This document shows positions 40,237 to 64,000 of a DNA stretch of 64,000 bases, in pieces. The notes below the pieces were generated by a model. The model was not told the origin of the DNA. It saw only the letters and a program-made list of their open reading frames with translations, and made no database searches. The position numbers and the translations under genes are program-made. The DNA comes from Amoebophrya sp. A120 (lineage: Eukaryota > Protista > Dinoflagellata): assembly GCA_905178155.1 (NCBI GenBank), contig CAJINV010000007.1, positions 3,490,265 to 3,554,264 on the forward strand, in the 5' to 3' direction. The first letter of the stretch is position 1, and each line of letters starts with the position of its first letter.

Positions 40237-43200
40237 ATGTCCGAAGACGGTTATGTCTCTTGTAACGATCGGAATTCGAGTCGCAGTTCGGGTTGTAAGA
40301 ATGAAACTACGACCCCGAGCACCAATTCCGACGACGGGCACTTGTTTGAGTGCTCGCCCTGTGAGCCCGACCCAAACGCGAGCAACAGTAGCACTGATGA
40401 GGAAGGAGAGCAGCTGCAACAGGGTATTATTCTTAGGAGAACCTCAAGTCAATACTAGCCTTATCCCGCTTCCCGTGTCCAGTAACCTGCAGACTTAATA
40501 GTATTCCGCTAGATGAATAGTAGCACTCAGCGTGTCTCTGTGGAGAATCGTTGTCGGCGCTTCAGCACAGGCAGGCCCATCTGCCGGCGATTTTCAAAGC
40601 GTCAGAACGGCTTCGGCACGATCCGGCACCGGCCGGCGCGGTGGGCAGGTTGGCCTTTGCCGTCATCTTGCATGCTGGCACCGGCGTGGCCGCGATCTGG
40701 CGGCGGGGGGCGGGCATGGTCGGGCACCGGCTTGGCCAGGGCCCGACACCGGCGTGGCCAGGGTCCGGCACCGGCTTGGGCATGATCGGCCACCGGCACG
40801 GTCATGCCCATGACCTGGCACCGGCGTGGCCACGACCTGGCACCGCCTTGGCCATGATTTGGCTGGCACCGGCTTGGCCGCGGCCTGGCACTTGCAGGCA
40901 TGGCCATGATTCCGCACCGGTTTGGCTATGCTCTGGCACAGGCAGGCAGGCTTGGCCGTGATTCATCTGGCAACGGCTTGGCCACGGCCTGGCACCGGCT
41001 TGGCCATGTTCTGGCACCGGCTTGGCCATGATTTGGCGCCGGCGTCGGCTTGGGCACGACCCGGAGCCGGCAGGCTTGGCCTTGCCATGACCTGGAGCCG
41101 GCTCGGCCATGGCCTGAGCGGGCGCCGGCCTTGCCGTGATCTGGCACCGACCGGCCTGGCCACGACCTGGCACCGGCTTGGCAGTGGTGTGGCACCGGCC
41201 TGGCCATGTCCTGACATGGGCCTGGCCATGATCTGGCACCGGCTTGGCCATGAGCTTCCTGGCGCCGGCTTGGCCGTGATCCATCTGGCACCGGCTCGGC
41301 CATGATCTGGCGCCGGCCTTGCCGCGACCTGGCACCGGACGGCTTGGCCATGATCTGGCGCCGGGTTGGCCATGATGTGGCACGGGGCGGGCGGGGCCAC
41401 GACCTGGAACCGGCTTGGCCATGATCTGGCACCGGCTTGGCCCTGATCTCATCAGGCGCCGGCCTGGCCATGATCTCTCTGGCGCCGGCCTGGCCACGAC
41501 CTGGCACCGGCTTGGCCACGATCTGGCACCGGCTTGGCCATGATCTGGCACCGGCTTGGCCATGACCTGGCACCGGTTGGCTGGCAGGCTTGGCCATGAT
41601 CTGGCATGCGGGCGCTGGCAGGTTTGGCCATGATCTGGCACCGGCTGGCTCGACAGGCTTTGGTCATGATCTGGCACCGGCTTGGCCACGGCCTGGCACC
41701 GAGTTGGCAGGCTTTGGCCATGATCTGGCACCGGCTTGGCCACGACCTGGCACCGGCGGGCTTGGCCACGATCTGGCGCCGGCTGGGCCATGAAGATCTG
41801 GAACCGGGCGGCCTGGCCATGATCTGGAAGCGGCTTGGCCATGATCTGGCGCCGGCTTTGCCATGATCTGTCATGCGGAAACACCCCGGGCGGATTTTTG
41901 TTCTAAAATGTGGCTAATTTTTCCGGGATTTCAAAAATTCCGGGCGCCCTTTCCGGCAGGCCCCACCGGCAACAGCCCGAGGCCCACAAAATTGCCCCGC
42001 TCGCCCTCTCATGCGCCTCGGCTGTGTTGCCGCTGTTCGGCTTTTGGGCCTCTAGGTTGGTCGTGGACGTGGTGTCCAGAGGTTTTCCAAGTTTTAAAAT
42101 TTAAAAATTCGGGCTGTTTTTCACGGAAAAGTGGTCCACACAATTTTCCAAAGCTTTTCGGGGTTTGTTGGAGAATCAGTGTGGTGGATGTTTGGGTTGT
42201 GTATGGGGCACAGTATCGGGGGCTGGAGGTCAAGGTGTGCCGTTTTCGAATGTGAAGCGGCGCGCGATTTTGTGTGTTGCCACTTCGCATTCCGCTGGCG
42301 TTTTGGTTTGTATCTCTCGTGGGATAGAAGATGTTGCTCGCCCCTCGGAACATGATGCTCGACATGCACGTCGAGCATCATCTTCCAAGATCACCCACAA
42401 CAACGCATGTCGGGTGAGGGAATGTCGGGAAGTCCAATTTTAGAAGATCCGAACAACTTCGGTTTTCGGCTTCTAAAACTGGGCACTTTCGGATTCTAAA
42501 GTCCCGGGCGCGCACCTTCTAAAACCACAAAACTCGCAAATCCTGCGGGATTTTGCGCTATCGGTGGTTTTAGAGGATTTTTTAGAGGACGGGCAAGGTC
42601 CGGGTTTTTCCGCCTCCGGAAGCGATTTTAGAGGGCATTTTAGAAGAATCCGGGCGAAAAATTAGAAGTGGCTTTTAGAGGTGGTTTTTAGAAACCACTT
42701 TTAGGGACCACTTTTAGAGGCGGAAAGTAGAGACGGGTTTTAGAGACGCATTTTAGAGACGGATTTTAGAGGCGCATTTTAGAGGCGCACTTTAGAGGCG
42801 CATTTTAGAGAGGGAAATTAGAGGCCAATTTTAGAGGCCGGAATTAGAGGATGGCTGCAGAGGGCATGGCAATGGGTGGCGTTGTGCATGGTCTGCTTGT
42901 CCGCGCCTTCAGGTCGTGGCGACTTCCTCTGTGGAGTTTCGTGTCGAGCCGAGGCATTGACCACTCGGTGTCCGGAGTGGGTTGTGGTAGTGCCTTTCCG
43001 CGTCTCATCTAGTTCTTCATGAGTATGACTCTTTGGGGATGTCCTGTTCGCAGTCTGGGTTCTTCCTCTTCGCGTCATTTCGTTAGCCCCTCGCCGGACT
43101 CTCCTTCCCGCTGTCGCTTTTCGTTTCATCCGCCGATGGGGAATTTGGGTGGGCCTTTTTTTTTGAAAACCGGAAAAATTAGAAGGATATTAGAAAGGAA

Positions 43201-46200
43201 AACCGCCCGGGCGTTTTCCGCATGAGATCTGGCACCGTCTTGGCAGGCTTTGGCCATGATCTGGAACCGGCTTGGCGCTGATCTGGCACCGGCTTGGCCA
43301 TGATGCATGTGGCACCCACGCACCGGCTTGGCAGGTTTTGGCCATGATCTGGCACCGGCTTGGCCGCGATCTGGCACCGGCTTGGCTATGATCTGGCACC
43401 GGCCCGGCCATGATCTGGCACCGGCTTGGCAGGCTTTGGCCATGTTTTGGCACCGGCTTGGCCGCGACCTGGCACCGGCTTGGCCACGACCTGGCACCGC
43501 CTCGGCCATGATTTGGCACCGGCATGGCCATGATCTGGCACCGGCGGGCTTGGCGGGCTTTGGTCATGATCTGGCAACGGCCGGCGGGCTTGGCCACGAC
43601 CGGGCACCGGCAGGCTTGGCAATGATCTGGCACCGGCTTGGCCATGATCTGGCATCGGCATGGCCACAGTCTGGCACCGGCTTGGCCACGACCTTCCTGG
43701 CACCGGGCGGCTTGGCCATGATCCGGAACCGGCCGGCTGGCAGGCTTGGCCGTGATCTGGCACCGGCTTGGCAGCCTCTGGCCATGATCTGGCGCCAGCC
43801 TTGGCACGGCCTGCCCTGGCACCGGCTTGGCCATCATCTGGCATCGGCTTGGGCACGACCCGGCACCGGCTGGCAGGCTTGGCCATAATCTGGCACCGGC
43901 TTGGCAGGCTTGGCCATGATCTGGCACCGGCTTGGCAGGCTTTGGCCATGATCTGGCACCGGCTTGGCCACGACCTGGCACCGGCTTGGCCATGATCTGG
44001 CACCGGCTTGGCTATGACCTGGCACCGGCTCGGCAGGTTTTGGCCATGATCTGGCACCGGCTTGGCCATGATCTGGCACCAGCTTGGCCATGATCTGGCA
44101 CCGGCTTGGCCACGACCTGGCATCGGCTTGGTCATGATCTGGCAACGGCTTGGCCATGATCTGGCAACGGCTGGCAGGCTTGGCCATGCATGATCTGGCA
44201 CCGGCTTGGCAGGTTTCCTCTGGCCACGACCTGGCGCCGGCTCGTGTTTCGAGGTTAGTTGCGTTTCGCACGTTGCTGCCCCGCCTCGAGGCTTCGCTGC
44301 TTCGGGGCTTCGCTGCTTCGGGGCTTCGTTGCTTCGGGGCTCCGCTGCTTCGAGGCTTCGCTGCTTCGGGGCTTCGCTGCTTCGGGGCCTCGAGGCTTCG
44401 CTGCTTCGAGGCTTCGAGGCTCTGCGGCTTCGAGGCTCTGCGGCCTCGAGGCTTCGCTGCTCCGAGGCTTCGCTGCTTCGAGGCTTCGCTGCTCCGAGGC
44501 TTCGCTGCTTCGAGGTTTCGCTGCTTCGAGGTTTCGCTGCTTCGAGGCTTTGCTGCTTCGAGGCTTTGCCGCTTCGAGGCTTCGCTGCTTCGGGACTTCG
44601 CTGCTTCGGGGCTTCGCTGCTTCGGGGCTTCGAGGCTTCGCTGCTTGTTCGAGGCTTCGTTGCTTGTTCGAGGATTCGCCGCTTGTTCGAGGATTCGCTG
44701 CTTGTTCGAGGCTTCGCAGCTTGTTCGAGGCTTCGCTGCTTGTTTGAGGCTTCGCTGCTTGTTCGAGGCTTCGTTGCTTGTTCGAGGCTTCGCTGCTTGT
44801 TCGAGGCTTCGCTGCTTCGAGGCTTCGCTGCTTCGAGGCTTCGCTGCTTCGAGGCTTCGCTGCTTCGAGGTTTCGCTGCTTCGAGGCTTCGCTGCTTCGA
44901 GGTTTCGCTGCTTCGAGGTTTCGCCGGCCGCTTCGAGGCTTCGCCGGCCGCTTCGAGGCTTCGCCGCTTCGGGGCTTCGCTGCTTCGAGGGTTCGCTGCT
45001 TCGAGGGTTCGCTGCTCCGGGGCTTCGCTGCTTTGGGGCTTCGGGGCTTCGAGGCTTCGCCGCTTGTTCGAGGCTTCGCCGCTTGTTCGAGGCTTCGCTG
45101 CTTGTTCGAGGATTCGCTGCCTGTTCGAGGATTCGCTGCTTGTTCGAGGCTGCGCTGCTTCGAGGCTGCGCTGCTTCGAGGCTTCGCCGCTTCGAGGCTT
45201 CGCTGCTTCGAGGCTTCGCCGCTTCGAGGCTTCGCTGCTTCGAGGCTTGGCTGCTTCGAGGCTTCGCTGCTTCGAGGCTGCGCTGCTTCGAGGCTGCGCT
45301 GCTTCGGGGCTGCGCTGCTTCGAGGCTTTGCTGCTTCGCCGCTTCGAGGCTTCGCCGCTTCGCCGCTCCGAAGCTTCGCTGCTTCGAGGTTTCGCTGCTT
45401 CGCGGTTTCGCCGCTTCGAGGCTTCGCTGCGTGCTTCGAGGCTTCGCGGCTTCGCTGCTTCCTTCGGCGTTTCGAGGCCTCATCGTTTCGAGGCTTCGCC
45501 GCTTAGAAGCTTGGGCACTTTGTCTGCATTTCGTTTTTGTTGTTTTTCGTTTCTATTCTTTGTTTTTGTTTTTTGTTTTCATTCTTTGTTTTCATTCTTT
45601 GTTTCCATTCTTTGTTTCCGTTTTTCGTTTCTATTCTTTGTTTTCGTTTTTCGTTTCCATTGTTTGTTTTCATTTTTCGTTTCCATTCTTTGTTTTCGTT
45701 TTTCGTTTCCATTCTTTGTTTTCGTTTTTCGTTTCCATTCTTTGTTTCCATTCTTTGTTTTCGTTTTTCGTTTCCATTCTTTGTTTTTGTTTTTCGTTTC
45801 TATTGTTTGTTTTTATTGCGGGATACTATTAAATAATGGGTTTTCTGACTTATAACTAGTCATGGTAGAGATTTGTTGTTTTGCATTGTCGTGGGCGGCT
45901 CTTTTAATTTTATGCATGAAGTTGAAGCCAGAGACAGATGCTAGATCAAGGACATGTTGATACTACCTTCCAGATGAACATAATTATACCTGCAGGAGGT
46001 CCTGCCCCCGTGGTTTCCGACATTTTTGTGAATGCGAAGAGGTACGAAAAGTTTCTGGACAAACTCCCGAAGCCCGAGTGCTTCGGCACAGTGCTGCTGG
46101 CGGATCATGTGCAAACCCGTGAGGAAAAGCAACAGTACGCGGATGACTTCACTGCTCGGTACAAGAAAGCGTCCGAGGAGGAGGCGCGGATCGTCGACCA

Positions 46201-50159: not shown

Positions 50160-50970
50160 AGCAGGAATGGAATTTCGTAGAAGAGGGCAGGAATCATGTT
50201 GCGAGCGGGGGGATTTTGTAAGGGAGCGATCGAACTATAGTTTTTGCTATAATGATCGCTGAACGAAAATCTACTTCACATGGTGCCAGTGGCGATTATC
50301 TATCAGGCTTTTTTGATGATGTTCCTCCAAAGAAAGTGGCTCCCTGGTACGCTGTACAACAAGCCGTAGCTTCCACTGAAGACAAAAGATGAAGCGACAT
50401 TTCGAAAAATTACGTAGTACTTGTTCATATCAAGTCGAGGACAAGTTGTTTCTGTAATACTACTATACGACTTTGATGGAACAAGTCCGATGGAATCGCC
50501 TGGGAAGGTCAGGCTCGTTCTTTAAGGTGTTTTTGCCTCATCACTCTTTTACGACGAAACTAAACGGTTGCAGCCGACAACAGTGCCCGTTTTCACGAGG
50601 ACACACCGGTAGTCAGTCCCAAAATGTGAAGATGTTCGCAGATTAGAGCTGAGTACTACAAAACGTTATCTTATATATGTTCTTAAAGATCAACTGGTGG
50701 TGATGGCGCGTTCATAAAGCAGTGCTCTGGATCATGTTGATGCAAATGCAATACAACACGTCCCGCCGCCCAAGTCTCATCATCTGTCGTCAGTCAACGT
50801 GGAGATGAACATCTTTGTCCTTCATGACTCTCAACTAAGGTCGTCAGTGTTAGTGTTGGACACAGGTCGTCGTGACAAGCGCTAAATCGCGTCTACTGGA
50901 AGAGGCGATGATCATCTCTTAGATAAAATGATGTTCGCTTTGCCACCTGCTTAAATTTTGAACGTACAGA

Positions 50971-52896
50971 ATGGAGAGCGAGAGAACATGCTGGGTGACC
51001 GTCGGGCAATGCGGAAATCAAATCGGCAGGGAGTTGGCCAAGCTGCAACTACAGGTAAGCCAATCCAATACCGCAAATGTTGCATGCGCGCCATCCGCTG
51101 TCTCCAACCGGGTGGCGGTCGACTCCGAAGCGAAGGTTCTATTGCGAGGAACAGGAGCGACCACGACTACAGGAACAAGCGCAGCGAAACATCCAAGCAG
51201 GACTACGGCGTCCAACGTGATTCACGAGCACTCGGGTCGGGGAAGTAACTGGGCGCTGGGCTACACCAGTGGAATGTATGGCGGCTGGAGTTCATCTACT
51301 TGTGCTTCTTTTTCTAGCGCCACCACAGCACCACCTTCCACTTCCGCGGTCCCAATCAGAAACAACTTCAAGCAGCTGAGCACCGGTTCGGTGAACTTAG
51401 TCGATGCCGACAGTGGCGCAGATCGAGGTGTCGTCGCGGATCGGCAGCGTGGAATAATGAGAAACAAGATCATGAACAGCAGCAGCGCGCACCCACAGCA
51501 CACCAGCAGACGCCGGGGAGCCAGCAGCCCGACTCCGACAGGAACAAATTTGGGCTTGCTTGATGATTCCAACCAAGTGATAGGTGAATGCGCGGCAACC
51601 AAGAACGAGCAACATCAAAGCGCAACTGACCTGACCGAGAGTCTACTGTTCCAAGAGCCTTACCTCGTGCACGGCGTGAAGGCAAAAGTGCGGCAAGTTC
51701 TGGAAAAATCGGACAAGCGAATCGAGAACCTAGTCCTCCTTCATTCCGTCGCGGGCGGAACGGGGAGCGGTCTGGGTTCGAGATTGCTGGAGGAGTTCGC
51801 AGCAGGAGTAGATCATGGTAGTGTTTTCTCGCAAGCAGCCGATGAGCAAGATTTGAACCTGGTATCCTGCGCAGTCCTTCCGATATGGTCGCAGCATTCC
51901 GAAACCTGTCTGCAGGCGTATAATGCGTGTTTCTCCGCGGCTTGGATGCAGGACTTTTGCAACGGAAATTTACTCTTCGAAAACGAGTTTCAGCTGGAGA
52001 AGATCCTGCAGCAACAGGGACATCAATTGTCTTCGCAGTTTGGGGGCAAGACGATGACAAATCACTCTTCCACTTCGTGTTCAACCAGCACCAGCGGCGC
52101 TTACACGCTCGTTAACCAGCAGTTCGCGGAGACCATCAACAGCCTGAACTTCACCGATTTTCTGACCTACGTGACCCCCATGCCGTCGCACCACTTTGCG
52201 CACGCGTTTTCTTACCGATTAGACCCCTTGATTGCGAAAACCAATGCGGAGTTGGAGCATCGGAACTTCTTGAAGAAGCGAGTTCTCCCCCCACCGCTGG
52301 AAGTGGCGAGAAAACACTTGCTGCTACAAGTGCACGCGACGGTGTTTAACGAAAGTGTCACGCTCCTCCAGCCGGAGTGGTTTTCGACCACGTGCGACCC
52401 GGTGCCCTGGAATCGGAGCTTTGTGCTAGAGCAGAAGCGGAGTGGGGGTCCGGGTTCTGCAGCTGGTACAGCTCCGACGAGAAGTACAACCAGGAGCACC
52501 ACGAATGCAAATGCAAATTCTACTACACCAGCCGCGACAAGAGGACAGGCAAAGCAGCTGTCCTCAACAACAGCATCCACCTACCCCGATGTGACTCTTG
52601 CCTTGAATTGGAGTAGAACTGGGGATCTGTTCCGGCATTTCTTGGACCGTGCGAAGAAGATGTACAGGGGTAGAGCGTTTTTCCACGCGTTTGAGCAGTA
52701 CGGTTTTGGTCATTGTGAATTCGAAAACATGTTTGAAACGGTGGAAGAACTCGTAGCCAATTACTCACCAGAAAGGCTCTTATATCGACACAGAAAAGCC
52801 GCGAGGGCTTTTTTTACACCTGGAGCTCGTCCTGGCTTTTCAACAGGAAGCTCTGGTCAACTGGAGCTATTCTCGGTGGTGTGTTGTTTTTCGTAA
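50971..52896 (+). CDS. Divergent tubulin of the zeta(eta)/delta class
   Basis: WVTVGQCGNQIG, VAVDSEAKV, GRGSNWALGY, HSVAGGTGSGLG, ETCLQAYNA..WMQ, LLFEN and RAFFHAFEQYG, interrupted by long low-complexity insertions. Confidence 0.85.
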   Translation: MESERTCWVTVGQCGNQIGRELAKLQLQVSQSNTANVACAPSAVSNRVAVDSEAKVLLRGTGATTTTGTSAAKHPSRTTASNVIHEHSGRGSNWALGYTSGMYGGWSSSTCASFSSATTAPPSTSAVPIRNNFKQLSTGSVNLVDADSGADRGVVADRQRGIMRNKIMNSSSAHPQHTSRRRGASSPTPTGTNLGLLDDSNQVIGECAATKNEQHQSATDLTESLLFQEPYLVHGVKAKVRQVLEKSDKRIENLVLLHSVAGGTGSGLGSRLLEEFAAGVDHGSVFSQAADEQDLNLVSCAVLPIWSQHSETCLQAYNACFSAAWMQDFCNGNLLFENEFQLEKILQQQGHQLSSQFGGKTMTNHSSTSCSTSTSGAYTLVNQQFAETINSLNFTDFLTYVTPMPSHHFAHAFSYRLDPLIAKTNAELEHRNFLKKRVLPPPLEVARKHLLLQVHATVFNESVTLLQPEWFSTTCDPVPWNRSFVLEQKRSGGPGSAAGTAPTRSTTRSTTNANANSTTPAATRGQAKQLSSTTASTYPDVTLALNWSRTGDLFRHFLDRAKKMYRGRAFFHAFEQYGFGHCEFENMFETVEELVANYSPERLLYRHRKAARAFFTPGARPGFSTGSSGQLELFSVVCCFS

Positions 52897-53146: not shown

Positions 53147-54420
53147 ATGCGGGGACTACGTCGCTGCCCTAACGTTCTTGCGCTGTCACCTCTCGTCGCG
53201 GCTTGCTTCGCTACAACTTCACGACTTTTCTCACTTTTCGCTGTGCCACTGTCTGCCCAATTATCTGGGACACGACCTGTAGGCAGCGTAGTACAACAAG
53301 AACCTCCGCCAGCAATGAACACTGCGCAAGAACTGAGCAACGGCCTCGCCAACTGGAAGCCCGGCGCGGGGAGTTGGCAGGAACTGGGTGACCTCTTCAC
53401 GAACAGCGGCACGGGCATTGGCATTGTTCTCGGCCTGGGCCCAGATGCGAATTTCGCGAGGCAATTTTTGCACATGTGGACCAACGGGGTGTTGTACCTG
53501 TGCGACCCGTTTATCCACATCTTCAACGGCTACGACGATCCGGAATATAACGTGGACGACAAGACGCACCAGATCAATTTCGAAAACATCCGCGTGACCC
53601 TGATGCAAACCCCTACCATCCAAGGCCGATACTCGATGGTCCGGGAGTTCAGCTTCAGCTTCTACCGCCTTTGGCTGAAGCAAGACCCGCAGTACGACTT
53701 CGGGCAAATACCGCCGAGGTTCATTTTCGTGGACAACAATCCGAGCAAAGACGCGGTCTTGCGGGACATGCACGACTGGTGGGAGTTACTTCTACCGGGC
53801 GGCGTCATGGCGGGCGCCAGGCCCGAGCATCCGGGAGTGTTTCACGCGGTTGAGAGCTTTGCGAAGTTGCACAATCTGGAACCCTATCAACTGCAAAAGT
53901 GTCTGGGTCTGGAAACTTGTAATGCTGCGTTGGGAATAGTAAATGCTCTGCAATGCACAGTTAAGCATGATGAGAAATATCTGCGGTTTTTTGTGTTGCG
54001 TTTTTCGCATGACTTGCATGACAGGCAAAAGGGTCTCTTCTTGGACACGCTTCACAAACTTTTTGGTCATGCCAGGCAAGCATGACAAATCTTCCAGACC
54101 CAGACATTTTTGCATTTGATAAACCCCTGCTGGTCACGGACGAGCAGACCTCGATCGGGTTCGGCTGGTTTCTATCCACAGAAAAAAACCCATCCACATC
54201 CATTTTTTGCATGACAAACACATGACTTGATACGTGTTTTGCATGACAAATTGGATGTGGATGGGTTTTTTTCTGTGGATAGTTTCTCATCAAACCGAAC
54301 GACGACGCGACAAACGAAGAATACATGCGGAAGGCGGAGGAGATGAAGCGCGTCGCCGACGAAGCGCGAGAAAAGGAGGCAAGGAAAATGCAAGAAATAA
54401 CCTCGAAAGTTGAGTTGTGA
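53147..54420 (+). CDS. Class I SAM-dependent methyltransferase-like protein (Methyltransf_24 type), secretory pathway
   Basis: GIVLGLG, LYLCDPF and FIFVD..AVLRDMHDWWELLLPGGVMAG. Exons 53147-53884, 54127-54172 and 54287-54420. Hydrophobic N-terminus; the spliced C-terminus is KVEL*. Confidence 0.8.
53885..54121. mobile_element. Introner, family B (237 bp, TSD AACCC)
   Basis: 30-bp TIR with 2 mismatches. Removal gives HNLEP|LLVTDE. Confidence 0.92.
54173..54281. mobile_element. Introner, family A (109 bp, TSD GTTTC), inverted relative to the copy at 28832
   Basis: Perfect 30-bp TIR TATCCACAGAAAAAAACCCATCCACATCCA. Removal gives GWF|LIKPN. Confidence 0.95.
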
Positions 54421-55262: not shown

Positions 55263-58200
55263 ATGCGTCCCCCTCCAGGCGGTGGAGCGATTCATTCGAA
55301 CAACCCCAACATTTCCACCAAACAGAGGGGGCCAGCACCTCCGGGAGGAGCACCCCCCCTATCGTCAGAGCAGGAGGAAATGAGATATGCGCAGCAGCAG
55401 CAGCAGCGAGCTTCACCTTCGAACAACCAGATGGTTCTTTTGTCCAATCCACAGCCAGCCTCCGTTACGTCGTCCACTTCCGGTGGCGGGGCGGGGACAA
55501 GTGGTTCCAGGCCTGGTGCAACGAGCTCCAAAGAGTCGTCCAGTGGAGGGAGCAGCAGTGGGCAGGAGAAAGACCCCGTGAGGTTTGGGACGGACGCGAC
55601 GAAAAGGGAAGATTTCGATCAGGAGTTCGAGCAATATGTGTTATCGGAAGACTATCCAAGAAGAAAAAAATGCTATGAGTAACTTTGTCATGATGCGCAA
55701 CTACATGCAAGATGATTGTGTACTGTGTCATACTGGTGCTGTGGATTTTAGGGCCCAGTATTCATGTGCCTTTTCGTGTGCTATTTGCGCATGACAGGTT
55801 TTTGCTGTCATGCCACACAGATCTGCAATGCTGCTCCGCAAAAAAAGTTACGCGTTGTACTCCTGCACTTTTTTCTGTTGGATAAAGACGCACGGCGCCG
55901 GAAAAAGAAGTGGACCTACGCAAAAGCATTTGGGGGCGCCGCGGTGGCCGCGAGTTCAGGGGCGCTATTTGGAATCCCGCTTGCGGCAATGGTACTAAAC
56001 ACGTACAATTTTTTTTTTTCCACGCACGAGATTTTTTTTTCCACGCATGAGAGGTGGAAAGATATCGAGAAGCACGCCCATGCGTCATGCATTATGATGA
56101 CCTTGACCACACACAGTAAAGAATTATCTTTGACGGAACATGAAAAAACAGGTCCTCATGGGCGCTGCGGGTGCGGGCGCTGGGATGTTCGGAATGCGGC
56201 AGATGAATGGGAAGGACGGGAAGCAGCGCGGCCAGAAATCCATAGAGGACGAAGCCGGCCCGGGCGGGCGGTCGCCGGGGCGCAGAAGGTACGCGACGCA
56301 CAAACGATTTTTGCAAACCGGGCGCCCGCCACCCAGTCTGAAGCGGGTCCGGTTTCTGATCAAGTGGGCGTCGATCAAGATTGACGAACTGGAAGAGGGA
56401 GACCACCCGGGCGTGATCCAGTATGAGACTGCACAATTCCCCCTCCCCCTCATTTGTAATGCAAAGTACCAAATCCATATCCACCCTTTGCCTCTTGGCA
56501 CGTTTTGCATGGCAAGTTCTGGAAGCCCAAATAGCACTACACTCCTGTGCAAATTTATCATGCAAAACCTGCATTCTTGCTGACACTTATAGTGCCGCTC
56601 ATGCTATACAAATAAGGGGGAGGGGGAGTTGTGCGCTGTCATATCCAGCTGATGGATGACATTATCTCGGAATTCAGCTTGGTGGTGGTATCAAGAAGAA
56701 AAATCCCGCCTCCGCATATCAAAACGGAAATCTGTGCTGCAGATTTGTGTCCACAAATCAGCTCTGTCATGCTAGAAGGAAAAAGATGCGGACTGTAGTG
56801 CTGGGTGGCGTGCGAAAGCCTTGCATCTTCAGCATGACAGGAGGCAGCTGGAAGTGGGGCGCAGCGTGACAAATTGCCTGCGAACGAGGCCACAACTGCG
56901 GGTCTTGGCCTTTTAGCAATACAAGACGACTTGTGTGCTCAAATACAACATCACAAGTTGAAGCTTCGTTTTCGATATGGGGAGGGGGGATGTTTCCTAG
57001 CGATAGGTGGAGGCCGCAAAAACCTCACTGAACGCTGAAACGGAACGGCAGAAGCTGCATGCATTCGTGCGCTTTTTGGAGAAGATAAAAACCTACAAAA
57101 AGTACGCGCATGCGAATCAGGTATAATATTGCGTATGCTACATAGAATTAGAATGAAGCTTTTCATCTTCTGCAAGATGAAATGAAAATGATGTACTCTT
57201 GTTACCTTATCGTTCGTCCGTTGCTGCAGTCTTACTTCCGCAGTCGTTGTCGTTGTGGCATCGCGGCTTTTGCGCATGACACATCAAACCTACACCATTA
57301 GGTCTGGCTCAAATCCTGGGAGGAGTCAAACGATGAAGAGCTGAACGAGATTGGTGACGTGAACAGCCGAATGGTGCTTCCCTCCGATGCCTGGCTCCGG
57401 CTGCAATTTGTCTTCCCCACCATCATTAACATTGCGAAAATCCTCTCCGCGCACGAGAAGGTGCACAAGACCGCGCACCTGGGCTGCACCCCTATGCATA
57501 GCAAAAGTATCGTACTTGTACTACATGCAGTACAGTACGACACATCTGGTGGTCTCGTGGCTATTTCAGCAATACAAATCATATTTTTCCTTGTGGTTCT
57601 CGTTCTTGTGGAAAAAAATTTTATTGTATTGCTATTTCATTCATCTACCACTACTAGTACGATGCTTTTGCAATGCATAACCGCGGTCGGGGGGCAAATC
57701 GTGAACGCGATCGATCACTTGGCGGATTGGTGCTACTCTGTGCTGTCGATGAGGCGAGTGAAGCGGTTTCTGGCGGAATATGAGGAGATGGCCGCGGCGG
57801 CATTAGAGGACAACGCGAAGCAGCAGGCTCTGTTGGACGGTAAGATGCAGGTGGAGGAGGATAGTGATTCGACAGAAAAGAAAAACGCAAAATCTGACGG
57901 AACGCTGCTGAAAGCCGCGTCGCCAGCTACCGTCGCAAAGGTCGAGAAGTCGTATAAGGGGATTTCGACGAAAAATGATTTAGGAGGAGGGATTGCAGAT
58001 GATGATCCGTCTACAGGTTTCAAGCCGGACCCGAGAATAGCAGGGGTGAAAACTACCACACAGACACAAGGAATATACAACTACAGAGAACAGCCACCGC
58101 CACCGCCAGGTGCACCAAATAACACTCCAAGTAACCCAGCGACCCCCTCCGCTGCATCATCTTCCCGCAGTAATAAAGCGACTTCAAAAAGCCCGGCGAA

Positions 58201-61200
58201 AAAAACGAAAGCGAAATCAGGGACGTCTCTCTCCCCCGAAAAACAACAGATGCAGCGTGGGAGTATCCAGGCGAGACAGCATAACAGCTTCCACTCGCTT
58301 CCGGACGACGCAGATGGGGATCAGGATGACAATGACGCAGAGGAGGATGATATGAGAGTGCACAATGGTCCATCCCCGCCTCCTCACTTGAAGCGGGGGG
58401 GGCATGAGCAGCAACACAAACAACGGCAGAAATGTAGTGACTTTCCCATGACAAAACTGCAACACCAGGGTCTGTTGTACTGCTATTCGAGGTTGTTCTA
58501 CTAAAGTTTACCATGCAGAGAGAGTCTATATAGTGGCGGCAGAAGCTTATTTTTTGGAAAATTTAAAAAAACATTGGGTGTCATAGATACTGGCTGCGGA
58601 GAGCACCACCACCGCCACGTGTGTCGAGCGTGCTCGGCTGCGGCGCCTGTGCAGCCGCGGTTGGAATTGATCGGAGAAAAAGAAGGTCGGGCGCCTGGTT
58701 GACATAAATGATAGGGCTGGGGGGCTGAACCTTACGAAGTGCACTGCACTCGCGGGCCCTGGCTCTAGCTCGATGCCCCGCCGAGGCCTGCGCCGATAGT
58801 AGTGGGGCCGCCGGCAAGCGGGCCCTGGTGGCATGCTTGCCAGTGGCTTCGCGTGTGTGTTTTGGCAGCGCGCCGGGCAGCAGGATGGGCCGGGGAGATG
58901 TGGCGAGGAGAAGCATTTCCGTGCCAGGCTTGTGAAAAGGCCTCGCTTAATGGCCGCGGGAAAATAACAACGCGCCCCGGGCTGCTAGGAGGGTGCGCTT
59001 TTTGCCTCCCGCAGCCCTTTCTGAAGCGTCGCCCGGCGGCTCTTGCTGCTTTTCTACCAGCTCTGGTGGCTGGCCCTTGGAGGGGCGATCGCTGGCGCGC
59101 CGGGGTTTCAGAGGGGCCGCGAAAGGGTCACCGCACCGGCTGGAGAACATGAAAAAAGCCCCGGAAACGTGCGGCGGCCAAAAACCGCGCCCGTTTTGAA
59201 ACCTGGGAGCAAGAGCGCCTGCCGCCGGAGTACCACAACCAAACTCCGGGCTGGAGGGGCGGAAACTCTTGGTCGCTGCGGCTGTGTCACTCCCGCCCCG
59301 GCCCCTGGAGGGGGCGTGGCAAGCGATTGGCCCGACCGAATGTCCGCCGCCCAGCGCACCCCCAAAGCGCGGGGCCTTTGCCTCTTTTGGAGGGGCATGA
59401 AACGGCACAAAGCGGACTGCCCCTCCTGCGTGCGTTATGCCCCGCAAGGGCAGTGGGGGTTCGCAGAGTAAGCCAGGCCAGAAGGGCTTCATTGATCGCC
59501 AAAAGCGCCGCCAGCCCCGTCCCTTTCCTTTTTGCCGCGCCATACTCGGATCGGGACAAAGCACGTGGCCGAACACTACCCGCCCGACCAGTCCTACCGA
59601 CTACGCCCAGTCGGGCACCTTCAACGAGGGCCAAGGACAGGGCGACGCAGATGCGCACCCACGGCCAAGGAAGGGAGCGCGCGACCGCAAAGAAACGGCC
59701 GCCCACCCCTTCTGCGTGTTATCTCCGAGGCGCGTCCCTAGCCCGCCCGCCCGCGGAAACCCGGGGAAGCGGCAGGGCCCCGGTCGCACCAAACGGGCGA
59801 AAACCCCTCCCCCACCCGAGCATGCGCCGGCGGCGAGAGGAGGGGGAGCAACCTGAGCAGAACTTGTTGGGCCCCCTCTTCCGACAGCCCGGAAGCTGGC
59901 CGCCTTAAATGGGCAAGGGTTTCGTGGAACGGCGCGCGCCGAGCACCCCGAACCCGGTTGGCACGCTTGTCGCCTCGACGGAGCTTCGGTTGGGAGGCTC
60001 CCCAACGGAAATGTGAGCCGGGCAACCGGAAACACCTGCCGGGGTAGGCTAAAGAGGCACCCCCCCAAAGTGGGCCCGTAGCATGCGGGGTCGCTCTTGC
60101 TTAGGGCCACTTTTGGAGACCCTATCCGGGCACCCCCGTCCGCGGGGCCCGGGGGGGCCCCGAAGTGGAAAACCAGTTGCGGCAAGGGCGGTCACGCAGC
60201 ACGCGCCCCACATGCGCCCCGGAGCGGCCGCGGGGCTGCGCAGCTGCCCGGGAGCTTGGCTCCGATTGCCCCGGCAAGCAAGAGCGCCGGCGGTCCTGGC
60301 GCCCCAAGCGCGTTGGCTTCTGGTTTTGGCGCCATGCGCCCCTCGGTCTGGCCGAAGGAAAACAGCGACAACAAGCACGGCCCACAGCATGCCGGTAGTG
60401 TTTTCCCCTGGAAATTGGTCCGCGTCCGCCCTGCATTGCCAGCCGGCCGGCTTCGCAATGTTGGCAGGGCGGCGCGCCGAAAGAGTAAGGCGGCCGTGGC
60501 GGTCCTGGTGTTTTTGGCATCCTCTAAAAGGGCCCCGGGCGCCGCGCACCTCTGCGCCCTACCTACTGCGCAAGCGCTGTGGATTTCGGCTCGGGCCAGG
60601 AAAGCAGTGGGGCGGCGGAGCCAGGCCTAATCCTTTCCGCCGTATATTTTTCAGGAAATCGGCCCAAGGCACGGCGGTCGGCCGAGGGGGCTTTTCAGGT
60701 TGTAGCCCGCCCGGGCTGGGGCCACTAGAGCACGGCGCGCCGCGGTCGGGCCCCCCTTACGCGGGCCGTCTGATCAGTTCCCCACCTGCAAAAAGGGGGG
60801 CCCGGGTGCCCCGCTGTGTTGCCCAGCGCGGCGGCGCTTGTACTCTGGCCTCCAAACGTGCTGGCAGTGTCGGCGGGCGGTTGTTTTCCGCGAAATTGGT
60901 ATCCGAAATGCCGCCGGGTAATTCTTGCAAGGAATCCCGCGACTTGGCGGAAGCGCGCTAGGGGGCGGCTTGGGAGGTGTAACCAAACCGCAGGCGCCTT
61001 GGCTGGGATGGAGCCACGTCTCCGCCCGCTTTGCAGGAATGGGGCTGCTCGAAAAGAGCGAGTGTCGCGCGGTTGGTGAATTGTGGTCTGCCGAGCAGGG
61101 GTCGTGGGCGGCGGCCGAGGGGTGTTGCGGCTCCTCGCCGGGCAATCAGGGATGGGCATTGCGGCCGATGATGCCGCCTGACCGGGGCGCAGGAGCATGG

Positions 61201-63612
61201 CCCCGGGGCATCTGGTGCGGCGCAAGGCGCTCGCCCATTCCACATCACGCCGTGCCTTTGGGTTGGCCAGATTCGGCCGCGCCTGCCGGGCCTCCGCCTG
61301 CCCCGACCAAATTCGGAGCGGCGCAGACCTGGCGGGATTGGCCCGTCTAGGGGTCAACGACGGGCCCGGCTCCCTGCCCACGATGCCCGCTCTAGCGTGC
61401 GCGGACGTTAAAGTTGACGTGACCTTTCGCGCCTTCTGCTAGGGGTTCTGCGGTGGTGTGATGTGTTTGACTTTGCGGCAGCACGGCAGAGCAAACTGGG
61501 TAAGCGTTGCGCTGGCGTGGGTCTTACGCCGTCCTGAGTCCAGAAGCGTGATGATTCGGCTGGGCTGCGGGGCCCACGATAAAGCCACCCAATATTTTTT
61601 TTAATTTTCGCAAAAATAAGCTTCTGCCGCCGCTATAGTCTAAAGCTACTTACGACTTGGAGTTGGATTTGTTTTGTTGCATCACAAAGGGCAGGGGAAG
61701 TTGTGCACTCCTGTCATAGATGATTACTTTCCACCGGAGGGCGCCGAGGACGAGTTTAGTGATGGGAGCGATTGTTTCCATGACGCGGAGTCCGATAACG
61801 ACATCGATCCAGAGATATCCATGCACAGCGACACCAGGTAGTACTTAAAGTTTTTCTTGTATGCAGCATCAAATCGTTGTACTGATGGCATGTGTTTGTT
61901 TTTGTGCAGAATGAGACCTCGGTCGCAGATGATTCTAGTAGCTTCGCACGACATAAATTTGTAAGCTCGCCGCGAGCCTACACTGTTGCCAAAAACTTTC
62001 AGATCAGAAGTTCCCTCGGTTCACCAGCCCTTTCGCAACAGCTGGCACGCGTTGTCAAATGGCCAAAACCCCTCGCACCACTCCGACTGCTTCCCCTATG
62101 TGGAGCCCGACAATCCAGAAAAGAAAAAGAACTGCTGGAGCCGGTCCGTCACGGCGTGGCAGGTCCGCGGGAAAAACTATCTGAAAGACAAGAAAAAAAT
62201 CGCCTCGCCCCCGCCCTTCGCGGTAGGCCTCGCGGCCGACATCTGTGACTGCCCCACGGCATTAGCGGTGTACGCTAGGCATCCAGAGGGATTTGTTCAG
62301 GTATAGATTGATGAAACGACTTTTTCAGAACAAGAATTATGATGGATTTATTCGTAAAAATTTTGCGATCTGGATGAAGATATTGATATGATATGGACCA
62401 TGAGTAGAACATCTTCACATTGTTCTTCGTGGTACGCCGCGAAATCGGAAAGAATAATCCCAAAATCAACAGCGTTGTCGAAAGGGCGGAGAGGGTCGGT
62501 TTCTGTTCGTGCTGAACTTTCGCTTTACCCCGAAGCATATCCTTTGCAAAAGTATCGTACTCGTACAAATGCCCGTCTTGCATGACAGATCTACTTGCAT
62601 ACCTGCATCTGCATGACAAGTTGCGCTTTTTCTTCTGCAGAAATTTGTCATACTCCTTCTACTAGTGCGATAGTTTTGTAATGCATAAAGCACATGGTCC
62701 TTGTGTGGGCCCTGGACCACAAGGAGTACCAAGACCCGATGTTCCAGAACTTTCTCTCCCTGCCGCCGGAAGAGAAAAGCAAATATTCTGAGTAAAAACG
62801 TCCCCACCCCAGAGTTGTCATGCAAATGTGCATGCCAAAAGCATCTCATGCGGAGCCCCGTGAGAAGCTCTTTCTAGGCGAGTTTTGGAGTTTGTGATGC
62901 TACAATCAGCATGATATGCTAGATTTATGATGCCCTGCTGAAATAGCCAAACAGGATTACACTTTGAGGGCAGACTTGTGATGCGAAACAAACAAAACTG
63001 GTTGATCTGTCTAGCAGGTTTGCCATCTTGATACCTTTCTGGGGACGTTTTTCCTCGCAATAGCAAACGCTTCAAATTCATCCCGTGCCTCGTCGAAGGC
63101 CCGTGGCTGGTCCGCCAGGCGGTGGGGACTAAACCGGCACTGCTGGGCAACAAAATTAAGTCCGATTGGTACCAGGGGGACGACTTTATAGAAATGTCCG
63201 TCGACATCTTCTCCTCCTCGTACGCCTCGCAAAAGTATCGCACTTCTAGTGCAAAACTGCATCACAATTTTTTTCAAGAACAAGGATGCAAGTTGTCATG
63301 CTATGTCAGGTGCTTAGAAAGAAAAATTAAGTTAGGGTTGTCATGCATGACTGGAATTATTTTTACCTGTGCGATACTTCTTTTGCAGAGGATACCTCGG
63401 CAGCCAGGGCGATTTTGGGGGTGACCAGCGGTGCGGCGCGGAAACTGATTCTGGAATTCGGTTTGTTGCTGGAAGGGCAGTCTGTGGACGAACTACCGGA
63501 GAGGATGATGACCGGATTTCGCATCATTTTCCCGGACCTAGACAAGGCGAGACTGATGTCTCCGGAGGAGGGCATGCCGCTGCTCAAAGGAGGCGGGGCG
63601 GCGCAAGGATAG
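55263..63612 (+). CDS. EDR2_C (DUF1336) domain protein with an N-terminal hydrophobic segment and an FFAT-like motif, 14 exons
   Basis: Motifs NCWS..WQVRGKNYLKDKKKIAS, RFKFIPCLVEGPWLVRQAVGTKPALLG, IEMSVDIFSSSAARAI and LEGQSVDELPE. Exons 55263-55652, 55890-55991, 56152-56421, 56649-56688, 57011-57120, 57302-57492, 57685-58350, 61724-61837, 61910-61960, 62003-62300, 62473-62537, 62693-62783, 63068-63220 and 63400-63612. The 61910-62002 region is tentative. Confidence 0.85.
55653..55884. mobile_element. Introner, family-A-related (232 bp, TSD AAGAC)
   Basis: TATCCAAGAAGAAAAAAATGC ... GCACTTTTTTCTGTTGGATA. Removal gives LSED|ARRRK. Confidence 0.85.
56422..56643. mobile_element. Introner, family D (222 bp, TSD TCCAG)
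   Basis: About 37-bp TIR TATGAGACTGCACAATTCCCCCTCCCCCTCATTTGTA. Removal gives GVIQ|LMDD. Confidence 0.9.
56689..57005. mobile_element. Introner, family C (317 bp, TSD GGTGG)
   Basis: Homologous to 21793-22114. Can be placed as GT-AG (56685-57006). Confidence 0.88.
57493..57679. mobile_element. Introner, family E (187 bp, TSD ACCCC/ACCGC), in frame and stop-free
   Basis: 28-bp TIR TATGCATAGCAAAAGTATCGTACTTGTA with 3 mismatches. Confidence 0.85.
58351..61718. mobile_element. Introner, family D (254 bp core, TSD GATGA), carrying a nested 3.1-kb element
   Basis: TATGAGAGTGCACAA ... TTGTGCACTCCTGTCATA. GATGA at 58346-58350 and 61719-61723. Removal gives AEEDD|YFPP. Confidence 0.85.
58529..61637. 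mobile_element. 3109-bp TIR DNA transposon (TSD GTCTA) with a GC-rich, apparently decayed interior
   Basis: About 52-bp TIR TATAG(T/C)GGCGGCAGAAGCTTATTTTT..GAAAATT..ATTGGGTG. GTCTA at 58524-58528 and 61638-61642. Confidence 0.92.
62538..62687. mobile_element. Introner, family E (150 bp, TSD AAGCA)
   Basis: Removal gives FTPK|HMVLVW inside the EDR2_C domain. Confidence 0.88.
62784..63062. mobile_element. Introner, family C2 (279 bp, TSD GCAAA)
   Basis: TATTCTGAGTAAAAACGTCCCCA ... TGGGGACGTTTTTCCTCGCAATA. Removal gives EKSK|RFKFIP. Confidence 0.92.
63221..63394. mobile_element. Introner, family E (174 bp, TSD CCTCG)
   Basis: TACGCCTCGCAAAAGTATCGCAC ... GTGCGATACTTCTTTTGCAGAGGATA. Removal gives DIFSSS|AARAIL. 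Confidence 0.9.
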
Positions 63613-64000
63613 CCGAGAAGCCTACCTACGCAATCAGACAGACATCACGACGACGTCGTGTTGTGCATTCGCCACAAGTGCTGGTTTGTTTCTGTGAAAT
63701 CGAGTTCGCCGGTGCAGTTTTCTTCGGTCTTGAAGAGCACTGAACATGTACTATACACCTTTCTCGATATTGAGCAGGACCACTGCTTTAGAGATGAATA
63801 CAGAAATCATATGATAGCGATGTTGAAATAATAATTCTATATTGATCTCTCAAGAACTCGAACTCGATGCTCAATACAATATAAGCTTAGGCTCACCTCA
63901 AGAAACTCTTTCGCAAAAAGTTGACGAGCAATGACTAGAGCTGGAGCTCACGTAATTATTTGAGGCTTTTATTTCAGCAAGAGCTTGTTGCTGGTGTTGT

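What the first reader, a model, noticed from the sequence alone, without database searches (positions are those of the whole stretch)
58524..61642. 3.1-kb TIR transposon with the introner end signature, nested in an introner: candidate relic of the parent element
Seen: TAT...ATA ends, an approximately 52-bp TIR and a perfect 5-bp TSD (GTCTA), the same signature as the short introners. It sits inside a family-D introner and makes a 3373-nt non-canonical intron in the EDR2_C gene. Its size fits a single-transposase element, but I cannot recognise a DDE motif in the short GC-rich ORFs. Known, from memory: TAY..RTA ends are listed for IS3EU elements, but with 6-bp TSDs. Inference: it derives from the autonomous, possibly unclassified superfamily that mobilises these introns.
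Basis: partly seen in the sequence, partly recalled or inferred. Interest (0 to 1): 0.85.

Follow-up and report, generated by a model that had tools for sequence, protein, structure and literature searches.

The report
Non-coding transposon nested in an introner
A 3.1-kb mobile DNA element with 52-base inverted ends and no gene of its own sits inside a transposon-derived intron of a marine parasite's gene and is removed from the transcript with that intron; it is likely a passive passenger moved by an enzyme encoded elsewhere, not the parent of these introns.

Summary
The element spans 58529-61637 and has 52-nt inverted ends (47/52), TAT...ATA tips and an exact 5-bp duplication, GTCTA. It lies inside an older introner (58351-61718, duplication GATGA). 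A spliced transcript contig joins 58345 to 61719, skipping 3373 nt with no GT-AG option. One 736-codon frame stays open across all ten junctions.

The end signature is real and specific. With an exact 5-bp duplication and at least 13/16 inverted ends, 9 of 13 hits in the window are TAY...RTA; no other duplication length shows this.

The "relic of the parent" reading is not supported:
- The 3-kb core (66% GC) has evenly spread stops, no codon periodicity and flat GC1/2/3.
- None of 57 six-frame segments has a credible Pfam hit, and two protein searches found nothing.
- Its inverted ends share only TAT with the introner families nearby.

The signature "5-bp TSD, TA/TA termini" is already noted in print for an Amoebophrya A120 introner family (Gozashti 2025, Dataset S2).

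Verdict: a large non-autonomous member of a known kind. Interest is modest.

The parts
57684..58345 (+). upstream exon of the EDR2_C-domain gene
   Evidence: X3 transcript contig piece 57684-58345; frame open, junction in phase 0
58346..58350 (.). left copy of the outer introner's 5-bp target-site duplication, GATGA
58351..58523 (+). left part (173 nt) of the outer 'family D' introner; starts TATGAGAGTGCACAA
   Evidence: termini shared with the element at 56422-56643; pairs with the right part in the predicted fold
58524..58528 (.). left copy of the inner element's target-site duplication, GTCTA
58529..58580 (+). left terminal inverted repeat (52 nt), tip TATAG, inner half A/T-rich
58581..61585 (.). 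GC-rich (about 66%) anonymous non-coding core, 3005 nt; no internal repeats and no palindrome
61586..61637 (-). right terminal inverted repeat (52 nt), tip ...CTATA
61638..61642 (.). right copy of the inner element's target-site duplication, GTCTA
61643..61718 (+). right part (76 nt) of the outer introner; ends ...GTTGTGCACTCCTGTCATA
61719..61723 (.). right copy of the outer introner's target-site duplication, GATGA
58346..61718 (+). the 3373-nt non-canonical intron as removed from the transcript (the cut may lie 0-6 nt further right)
   Evidence: X3 joint 58345/61719; no canonical dinucleotide option
61719..61834 (+). downstream exon
   Evidence: joints 58345/61719 and 61834/62000 in the X3 contig; frame open

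Best explanation
This is a 3,109-bp terminal-inverted-repeat DNA transposon without coding capacity (52-nt TIRs, TAT...ATA tips, 5-bp target duplication GTCTA) inserted into an older introner. It is likely a non-autonomous element that was moved in trans by an integrase-like (IS3EU/GingerRoot- or Ginger-type) DDE transposase encoded elsewhere in the genome. Shown: the anatomy; the nesting inside a TAT...ATA/5-bp-TSD introner; precise removal of the whole 3373-nt composite from a transcript at the outer introner's duplication, with the reading frame kept; and the absence of any coding signal in the core. Inferred: the element and the short introners use the same transposition chemistry, because they share the tip trinucleotide and the TSD length. 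The insertion is tolerated because it landed in sequence that is spliced out anyway. Predicted: the splice sites are still found because the outer introner's ends pair (about 25-29 bp) while the inner 52-bp TIR stem closes off the 3-kb core, so the geometry of the original hairpin intron is kept.
For: Structure and TSD. Signature shared and specific: with an exact 5-bp TSD, TA..TA tips and at least 13/16 ungapped TIR there are 9 elements in the window, against 0 in each of 20 block-shuffles. Without any tip requirement, 9 of 13 hits at TSD length 5 are TAT..ATA or TAC..GTA. Lengths 2, 3, 4, 6, 7, 8 and 9 give 238, 55, 29, 9, 0, 1 and 1 hits, with TAT..ATA not among the commonest classes. Seven of the 10 introns of the host transcript segment are TAY...RTA elements with a 5-nt flanking repeat, 6 exact and 1 at 4/5. 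Non-coding core: stops number 13-22 per 1039 codons in all six frames. Period-3 signal is 1.9x the mean, against 5.5x and 2.8x in host exons. GC1/GC2/GC3 are flat at 0.63-0.71 in the 6 longest ORFs, while host ORFs mostly show a GC2 dip. None of 57 six-frame segments of 30 aa or more reaches a Pfam cut-off; the best hits are unrelated, at E 0.03-2. The 302-aa ORF has no relative among similar-length or longer proteins. There is no Rfam family and no tandem repeat. No transposase domain occurs in any of the 196 window ORFs of 110 aa or more, consistent with supply in trans. Splicing and frame. Fold: both stems are kept in the MFE of the 3400-nt pre-mRNA stretch and in the empty-site form. A second case of the same architecture exists: a 796-nt element at 34505-35300 with TAC...GTA tips, TSD TGAAA, TIR of about 56-58 nt, an A/T run and a 63% GC core. 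It is itself nested in a 1108-nt TAT...ATA element. Literature (passages and supplement rows read): Amoebophrya introners have inverted and direct repeats and no internal transposase (Farhat 2021, PMC7789003). A120 fam38 is noted '5-bp TSD, TA/TA Termini', TIR 49-53, class TIR DNA/Ginger (Gozashti 2025, PMC12130899, file 8). IS3EU/GingerRoot have TA..TA termini with 6-bp TSDs, and Ginger2 has 4-5 bp (Kojima 2023; Bao 2010).
Against: No second copy was found anywhere, so mobility as a family is unproven. There is none in the window and none in viral contigs. The one hit in metagenome contigs is a 20-mer chance match that does not extend. No whole genome was held. Beyond TAT the TIR resembles no introner family, so 'same enzyme' rests on 3 bases plus the TSD length. 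At 3.1 kb it is 3 to 28 times longer than the other 11 signature elements in the window (109-1108 nt), and its core composition (66% GC) differs from theirs (36-49%); the origin of the core is unexplained. The role of RNA pairing in splice-site choice is a fold prediction only. The transcript evidence is one assembled contig from one run whose RNA nature is inferred from its 10 intron-skipping joints.
Confidence: 0.7

Rival explanations
1. Decayed relic of the autonomous parent element: it once encoded the transposase that moves the introners, and mutation has since erased the gene.
For: The size (3.1 kb) fits a single-gene DNA transposon. It has the same tips and TSD length as the introners. 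Long TIRs of about 50 nt are typical of Ginger-type autonomous elements (Bao 2010 passages).
Against: No frame stands out, and there is no period-3 signal, no GC2 dip, no Pfam hit and no protein relative. The TSD is 5/5 and the TIR arms differ at only 5/52. Decay since insertion is therefore small, and a gene present at insertion should still be recognisable. Its TIR matches no introner family beyond TAT.
Confidence: 0.08
2. Composite or 'pack'-type element: two functional ends that captured a stretch of unrelated GC-rich DNA, either host intergenic or foreign, and carry it as cargo.
For: There is a sharp composition step from A/T-rich TIRs to a 66% GC core. The core has no repeats and no symmetry. 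The 796-nt element at 34505-35300 has the same layout with an unrelated core.
Against: No source was found for the core: there is no match elsewhere in the window, none in plasmids or phages by blastn, and no protein-level match. This is a variant of the best explanation, not a true alternative, since it too is non-autonomous.
Confidence: 0.15
3. Autonomous element whose transposase is of an unknown family and is split by many small, non-canonical introns, so that ORF-based searches miss it.
For: Genes of this organism are densely interrupted: 10 introns in 2.6 kb of mRNA, 6 of them non-canonical. Low-depth RNA-like contigs lie at 58585-58946.
Against: Segments down to 30 aa were scanned at E up to 10 without any DDE, rve or zinc-finger hint. 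Periodicity is absent in all five 1-kb windows. GC2 of 0.63-0.71 is unlike host coding sequence. No RNA-like coverage was seen over 59204-61606.
Confidence: 0.04
4. Not a mobile element: an assembly artefact or a chance inverted repeat.
For: Only one copy is known.
Against: A 52-nt TIR at 90% plus an exact 5-bp TSD plus the family tips is far beyond chance. DNA-like runs X1 and X2 hold 0.92 and 0.91 of the sampled words of 57300-62700, 58% of which is the element; they may, however, be the assembly's own data.
Confidence: 0.02

Closest known systems
Amoebophrya introner elements (Farhat et al. 2021, PMC7789003; passages read)
   Same: Inverted repeats at the ends, 3-5-nt direct repeats overlapping the exon/intron borders, non-canonical splice sites, hairpin-forming ends and no internal transposase. 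The host introner and six neighbouring introns fit this description.
   Different: The 3.1-kb element is not itself the spliced unit; it rides inside one. Its TIR (52 nt) is longer than the 8-20 nt reported, and it is about ten times longer than typical introners. That the organism is an Amoebophrya relative is inferred: its delta-tubulin-like protein's best named relative is Amoebophrya sp. A25, at 31% identity.
Amoebophrya sp. A120 introner family 38 (Gozashti et al. 2025, PMC12130899; main-text passages and Dataset S2 rows)
   Same: TIR DNA element with a TIR of 49-53 nt, and the authors' note '5-bp TSD, TA/TA Termini'.
   Different: The family consensus is 808-810 bp, not 3109 bp, and the authors report regions of Copia/Gypsy-like homology; none was found here. 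The 796-nt element at 34505-35300 is the closer match in size.
IS3EU / GingerRoot DNA transposons (Kojima 2023, PMC10045372; passages)
   Same: TA..TA termini and TIRs; an integrase-clade DDE chemistry that gives short TSDs.
   Different: Their TSDs are usually 6 bp, whereas here they are 5 bp in every element checked. No IS3-like transposase is in the element or the window.
Ginger2/TDD DNA transposons (Bao et al. 2010, PMC2836005; passages)
   Same: TIRs of about 50-180 bp and TSDs of 4-5 bp (5 bp for TDD-4 and TDD-5).
   Different: Ginger termini follow TGTNR, whereas here they are TAY. No integrase-like ORF is present.
Non-autonomous TIR transposons / MITEs nested in one another
   Same: TIR plus TSD, no gene, insertion into another element of the same kind. 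This is seen twice in the window (58529 in 58351-61718; 34505 in 34468-35575).
   Different: It is too long to be called a MITE, and its copy number is unknown.

Membership tests
Non-autonomous TIR DNA transposon | terminal inverted repeats | tested here: met
   52 nt, 47/52
Non-autonomous TIR DNA transposon | target-site duplication of fixed length | tested here: met
   GTCTA, 5/5; the same length in 11 other elements of the window
Non-autonomous TIR DNA transposon | no transposase gene | tested here: met
Non-autonomous TIR DNA transposon | several copies in the genome, with a cognate autonomous element | not testable with these tools
Amoebophrya-type introner element (Farhat 2021) | is itself removed as an intron at its direct repeat | tested here: not met
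   the only joint seen is at the outer introner's repeat (58345/61719); no joint at 58528/61643 in X3. Contigs can miss rare forms.
Amoebophrya-type introner element (Farhat 2021) | inverted repeats at the ends plus a 3-5-nt direct repeat | tested here: met
Amoebophrya-type introner element (Farhat 2021) | repeated in introns of many genes | not testable with these tools
   no genome
IS3EU/GingerRoot | TA..TA termini | tested here: met
   TAT...ATA; criterion
IS3EU/GingerRoot | 6-bp TSD | tested here: not met
   5 bp; a scan at TSD length 6 gives no TAT..ATA class
IS3EU/GingerRoot | IS3-like DDE transposase in autonomous members | tested here: not met
   none in the element or the window; a partner elsewhere in the genome cannot be excluded
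Ginger2/TDD | 4-5-bp TSD and TIRs of 50-180 bp | tested here: met
   5 bp and 52 nt; criterion
Ginger2/TDD | TGTNR termini | tested here: not met
   the termini are TATAG
A120 fam38-like (Gozashti 2025 Dataset S2) | 5-bp TSD, TA/TA termini, TIR of about 50 nt | tested here: met
   against the row read
A120 fam38-like (Gozashti 2025 Dataset S2) | sequence homology to the family consensus (808 bp) | not testable with these tools
Transib (recalled: 5-bp TSD, CAC... termini) | CAC-type termini | tested here: not met
   the termini are TAT; the criterion is recalled and comes from no call

The most novel reading that the evidence does not exclude
The 'long-TIR, GC-rich-core' elements (this 3.1-kb one and the 0.8-kb one at 34505-35300) are internal-deletion derivatives of the still-unfound autonomous transposon that drives all TAY...RTA/5-bp-TSD introners of this parasite lineage. 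That parent would be an integrase-clade transposon, IS3EU/GingerRoot-like in its TA..TA tips but making 5-bp duplications. The foreign-looking 66% GC core would be what remains of a horizontally acquired parent. In addition, the nested pair is a natural experiment showing that non-canonical splice sites here are set by pairing of the introner ends, whatever lies between them.
Probability: 0.1. Interest if true: 0.7.

Novelty: new member of a known kind. Interest (0 to 1): 0.3.

Why it matters
Which enzyme spreads the thousands of non-canonical introners of Amoebophrya-like parasites is still open. Farhat 2021 found no general transposase, and Gozashti 2025 leave most A120 families as 'TIR DNA, Unknown'.

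This locus does not supply that enzyme. It does give three usable facts:
- The signature (TAY...RTA tips with a strict 5-bp duplication) is shared by short introners and by kilobase-scale non-coding TIR elements. This narrows the search to an integrase-clade DDE transposase with TA..TA tips.
- Elements of this kind insert into one another, and introner-derived introns act as safe landing sites.
- A transcript shows that an introner-derived intron enlarged about 13-fold by a 3.1-kb insert is still cut at exactly the same duplicated pentamer. This fits end-pairing models of this unusual splicing but does not prove them.

Tried and rejected
1. Whole genome for a copy census: none is held.
It was not repeated, so copy number, polymorphism and the empty site stay open.
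3. TIR pattern scans: 0 hits in metagenome contigs and 0 in viral contigs for the 22-mer. A 20-mer gave one metagenome contig (L001), where the match does not extend beyond the 20 bases, so it is chance.
4. blastn 'distant' of the element against plasmids and phages: no match.
5. Pfam on the 20 longest ORFs, then on all 57 segments of 30 aa or more: only sub-threshold unrelated hits (ACTH_domain, Zn_ribbon_Nudix, Phage_Mu_Gp37, Antitox_RHH, DEFB136, DUF2457).
6. Protein searches with the 302-aa ORF, against similar-length and longer proteins: none. The tool itself rates the 'longer' search as weak evidence.
7. Exhaustive representative search with the 251-aa ORF: the queue was full at four tries, so it was never run.
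8. Rfam: only IS009 at E 0.64, far below its gathering score. TRF: two trivial rows.
9. Large palindrome or foldback idea, prompted by the AT-skew sign change: rejected, since there is no inverted similarity beyond the TIR.
10. Homology between this core and the 796-nt element's core: none (best E 0.025 over 33 nt).
11. Earlier notes of this scan: nothing on this genome or on look-alikes. The two word hits concern other organisms.
12. No RNA holder is listed on record for this stretch. Raw RNA runs X9-X11 gave 1, 4 and 0 reads, which is no test.
13. Runs X4-X6 hold 0.23-0.24 of the sampled words and X3 0.27, close to the exonic share of the stretch (1344/5401 = 0.25, my arithmetic).
14. Supplement search for the TIR motif in Gozashti 2025: no sequences are held there. 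The A120 rows read (parts 16-17) list no family of about 3.1 kb with a TIR of about 52 nt. Part 15 and the A25 rows were not read in full.
Full report
**1. What is there**

The sequence shows GTCTA | TATAGTGGCGG...CCGCCGCTATA | GTCTA.
- The repeat finder gives inverted arms at 58529-58580 and 61586-61637, 52 nt and 90% complementary. An end-to-end alignment shows that similarity stops right after these 52 nt.
- A 22-mer of the arm occurs only at these two places with up to 3 mismatches, against 0 expected in 100 shuffles.
- The element is 3109 bp long. It is 65.5% GC, against 53% for the window and 45-52% for its flanks.
- The window holds no second copy.

**2. Where it sits**

It lies inside a second element, 58351-61718. 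That element runs TATGAGAGTGCACAA...TTGTGCACTCCTGTCATA and is flanked by GATGA on both sides.

Pfam places EDR2_C in the downstream exons: 61965-62303 at E 2.5e-6 and 63032-63421 at E 2.3e-15.

**3. Is the composite spliced out?**

Run X3 is kept as assembled contigs and its RNA nature was only a guess. It holds one 3280-nt contig (depth 40.9) that lies on the window in pieces joined by 10 skips.
- One skip runs from 58345 to 61719 and removes 3373 nt.
- A contig that skips ten introns is a transcript. When the pieces are joined, a single 736-codon frame stays open across all junctions, and this junction is in phase 0.
- None of the 7 equivalent cuts gives GT-AG, GC-AG or AT-AC; the nearest is AT..AG.

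Limits:
- This is 1 of 1 RNA-like contig set laid.
- The three raw-read RNA runs gave 1, 4 and 0 reads on the 8-kb stretch and test nothing.
- Two low-depth contigs (depth 3-4) lie at 58585-58946 inside the element. They could be pre-mRNA and were not followed up.

**4. Is the 'introner end signature' real?**

Yes. Of the 10 introns in that transcript segment, 7 are elements with TAY...RTA tips flanked by a 5-nt direct repeat: 6 exact, and 1 at 4/5 (ACCCC/ACCGC). Six of the 10 have no canonical splice option.

A blind scan of the window gave these results:
- Requiring an exact 5-bp flanking repeat, TA..TA tips and at least 13/16 ungapped inverted ends found 9 elements, against 0 in each of 20 block-shuffled controls.
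- Without any tip requirement, 9 of 13 hits at repeat length 5 are TAT..ATA or TAC..GTA.
- Lengths 2, 3, 4, 6, 7, 8 and 9 gave 238, 55, 29, 9, 0, 1 and 1 hits, with no TAT..ATA class among the commonest.
- At 12/16, three more elements appear (31036-31210, 56422-56643, 62538-62687).

A further copy of the 109-nt element at 54173-54281 lies at about 28832-28940. It is 97% identical over 100 nt and has its own TSD, AGAGG.

The 3.1-kb element carries the same signature, but beyond TAT its arm resembles none of these families.

**5. Does it encode, or did it ever encode, a transposase?**

Nothing says so.
- Stops are spread evenly, 13-22 per 1039 codons in each of the six frames. For random sequence of this composition I compute about 26.
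- The period-3 signal is 1.9 times the spectral mean for the whole core and 0.7-1.9 in five 1-kb windows. Two host exons give 5.5 and 2.8.
- The six longest ORFs have flat GC1/GC2/GC3 of 0.63-0.71, whereas host ORFs mostly show the usual GC2 dip.
- None of the 20 longest ORFs, and then none of all 57 six-frame segments of 30 aa or more, reaches a Pfam cut-off. The few hits at E 0.03-2 are unrelated.
- The 302-aa ORF has no relative among similar-length proteins or longer ones.
- There is no Rfam family, no tandem repeat, no internal repeat and no palindrome beyond the TIR.
- The TSD is intact and the arms differ at only 5 of 52 positions. Little decay has therefore happened since insertion, and a gene present then should still be visible (inference).
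- No transposase domain occurs in any of the 196 ORFs of 110 aa or more in the window: 20 inside the element, 95 and 81.

**6. A second example of the same layout**

An element at 34505-35300 is 796 nt long, with TAC...GTA tips and TSD TGAAA.
- It has a TIR of about 56-58 nt and an A/T run at the inner end of each arm. Its anonymous core is 63% GC.
- It is itself nested 37 nt inside a 1108-nt TAT...ATA element (34468-35575, TSD AATGA).
- Its core shows no homology to the 3.1-kb core (best E 0.025 over 33 nt).
- The short introners are 36-49% GC.

So the window holds two 'long-TIR, GC-rich-core' elements, both nested in elements of the same signature.

**7. How it most likely works**

- Shown: the anatomy, the nesting, the precise removal and the absence of coding signal.
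- Inferred: it is a non-autonomous element moved in trans by the same kind of enzyme that moves the introners, and it is tolerated because it landed in sequence that is spliced out.
- Predicted: in the minimum-free-energy fold of the 3400-nt pre-mRNA stretch, the outer introner's ends still pair (58342-58377 with 61689-61732). The inner arms form a nearly continuous 52-bp stem that closes off the core. The empty-site form has 25 pairs joining the two ends.

This fits the hairpin model drawn for Amoebophrya introners (Farhat 2021, passages read). It is a fold prediction, not a test.

**8. Organism**

The window's delta-tubulin-like ORF (50962-52893) has as its best named relative a protein of Amoebophrya sp. 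A25, at 31% identity over 92% of the query. Together with the intron features, this points to an Amoebophrya-like syndinean other than A25. Which strain is not shown.

**9. Comparison with what is known**

- Farhat 2021 (PMC7789003, passages) describe Amoebophrya introners with 8-20-nt inverted repeats, 3-5-nt direct repeats and no internal transposase. They found putative transposases only in A25.
- Gozashti 2025 (PMC12130899) was read as main-text passages and as Dataset S2 rows: search hits, and parts 16 and 17 of file 8. They class most A120 families as 'TIR DNA, Unknown'. For fam38 (808 bp, TIR 49-53) they note '5-bp TSD, TA/TA Termini' and class it as Ginger. [quoted passage not shown]
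- Kojima 2023 (PMC10045372, passages) states that IS3EU families always have TA..TA termini and usually 6-bp TSDs. GingerRoot has 6 bp with mostly TA..TA termini, and Ginger2 has 4 or 5 bp.
- Bao 2010 (PMC2836005, passages) gives TGTNR termini for Ginger.

The signature here (TA..TA tips, strict 5 bp) therefore sits between IS3EU/GingerRoot and Ginger2 and fits neither fully. It points to the integrase clade of DDE enzymes, but membership cannot be claimed without the enzyme. That Transib makes 5-bp TSDs with CAC-type ends is recalled and comes from no call.

**10. Not done**

- No genome was held.
- Pattern scans of metagenome and viral contigs gave nothing beyond one chance 20-mer.
- blastn against plasmids and phages gave nothing.
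- The exhaustive protein search never got a slot.

Copy number, an empty site and a possible ORF-bearing relative thus remain open.

**11. Verdict**

It is a new, unusually large non-coding member of a kind already described in this lineage.

Noticed in passing
window 34468-35575 and 34505-35300: A second nested pair. A 796-nt element (TAC...GTA tips, TSD TGAAA, TIR of about 56-58 nt, 63% GC core) sits 37 nt inside a 1108-nt TAT...ATA element (TSD AATGA). Its size and TIR length resemble A120 fam38 and fam196 in Gozashti 2025 Dataset S2 (808-811 bp, TIR 49-57); sequence relatedness was not testable.
   Followed up: partly
window 56151-64000: In the EDR2_C gene's transcript contig, 6 of 10 introns have no canonical splice option. 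Seven of the 10 are TAY...RTA elements with 5-nt flanking repeats. One of them (56689-57005, TSD GGTGG) gets a GT..AG from its duplicated target.
   Followed up: yes
window 28832-28940 and 54173-54281: Two copies of a nearly palindromic element of about 109 nt (TATCCACAGAAAAAAA...), 97% identical over 100 nt, in opposite orientation. Each has its own 5-bp TSD (AGAGG and GTTTC), a sign of recent transposition.
   Followed up: partly
window 40600-45850: GC-rich (61-67%) arrays of diverged tandem repeats spanning about 5 kb in several blocks; long open frames on both strands have no Pfam hit.
   Followed up: no
window 50962-52893: A delta-tubulin-like ORF (Pfam Tubulin, E 2e-15). Its best named relative is Amoebophrya sp. 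A25 at only 31% identity, in line with the fast protein evolution reported for this group.
   Followed up: partly
window 58585-58946: Two low-depth (3-4) contigs of the RNA-like run X3 lie inside the left end of the element, while 59204-61606 has no coverage. This could be pre-mRNA, a transcript from the element, or an assembly effect of the GC-rich core.
   Followed up: no
window 56481 / 58435: One low-depth X3 contig (depth 2.95) joins these two places on opposite strands. It could be a chimera or a hairpin artefact involving the outer introner's left part.
   Followed up: no
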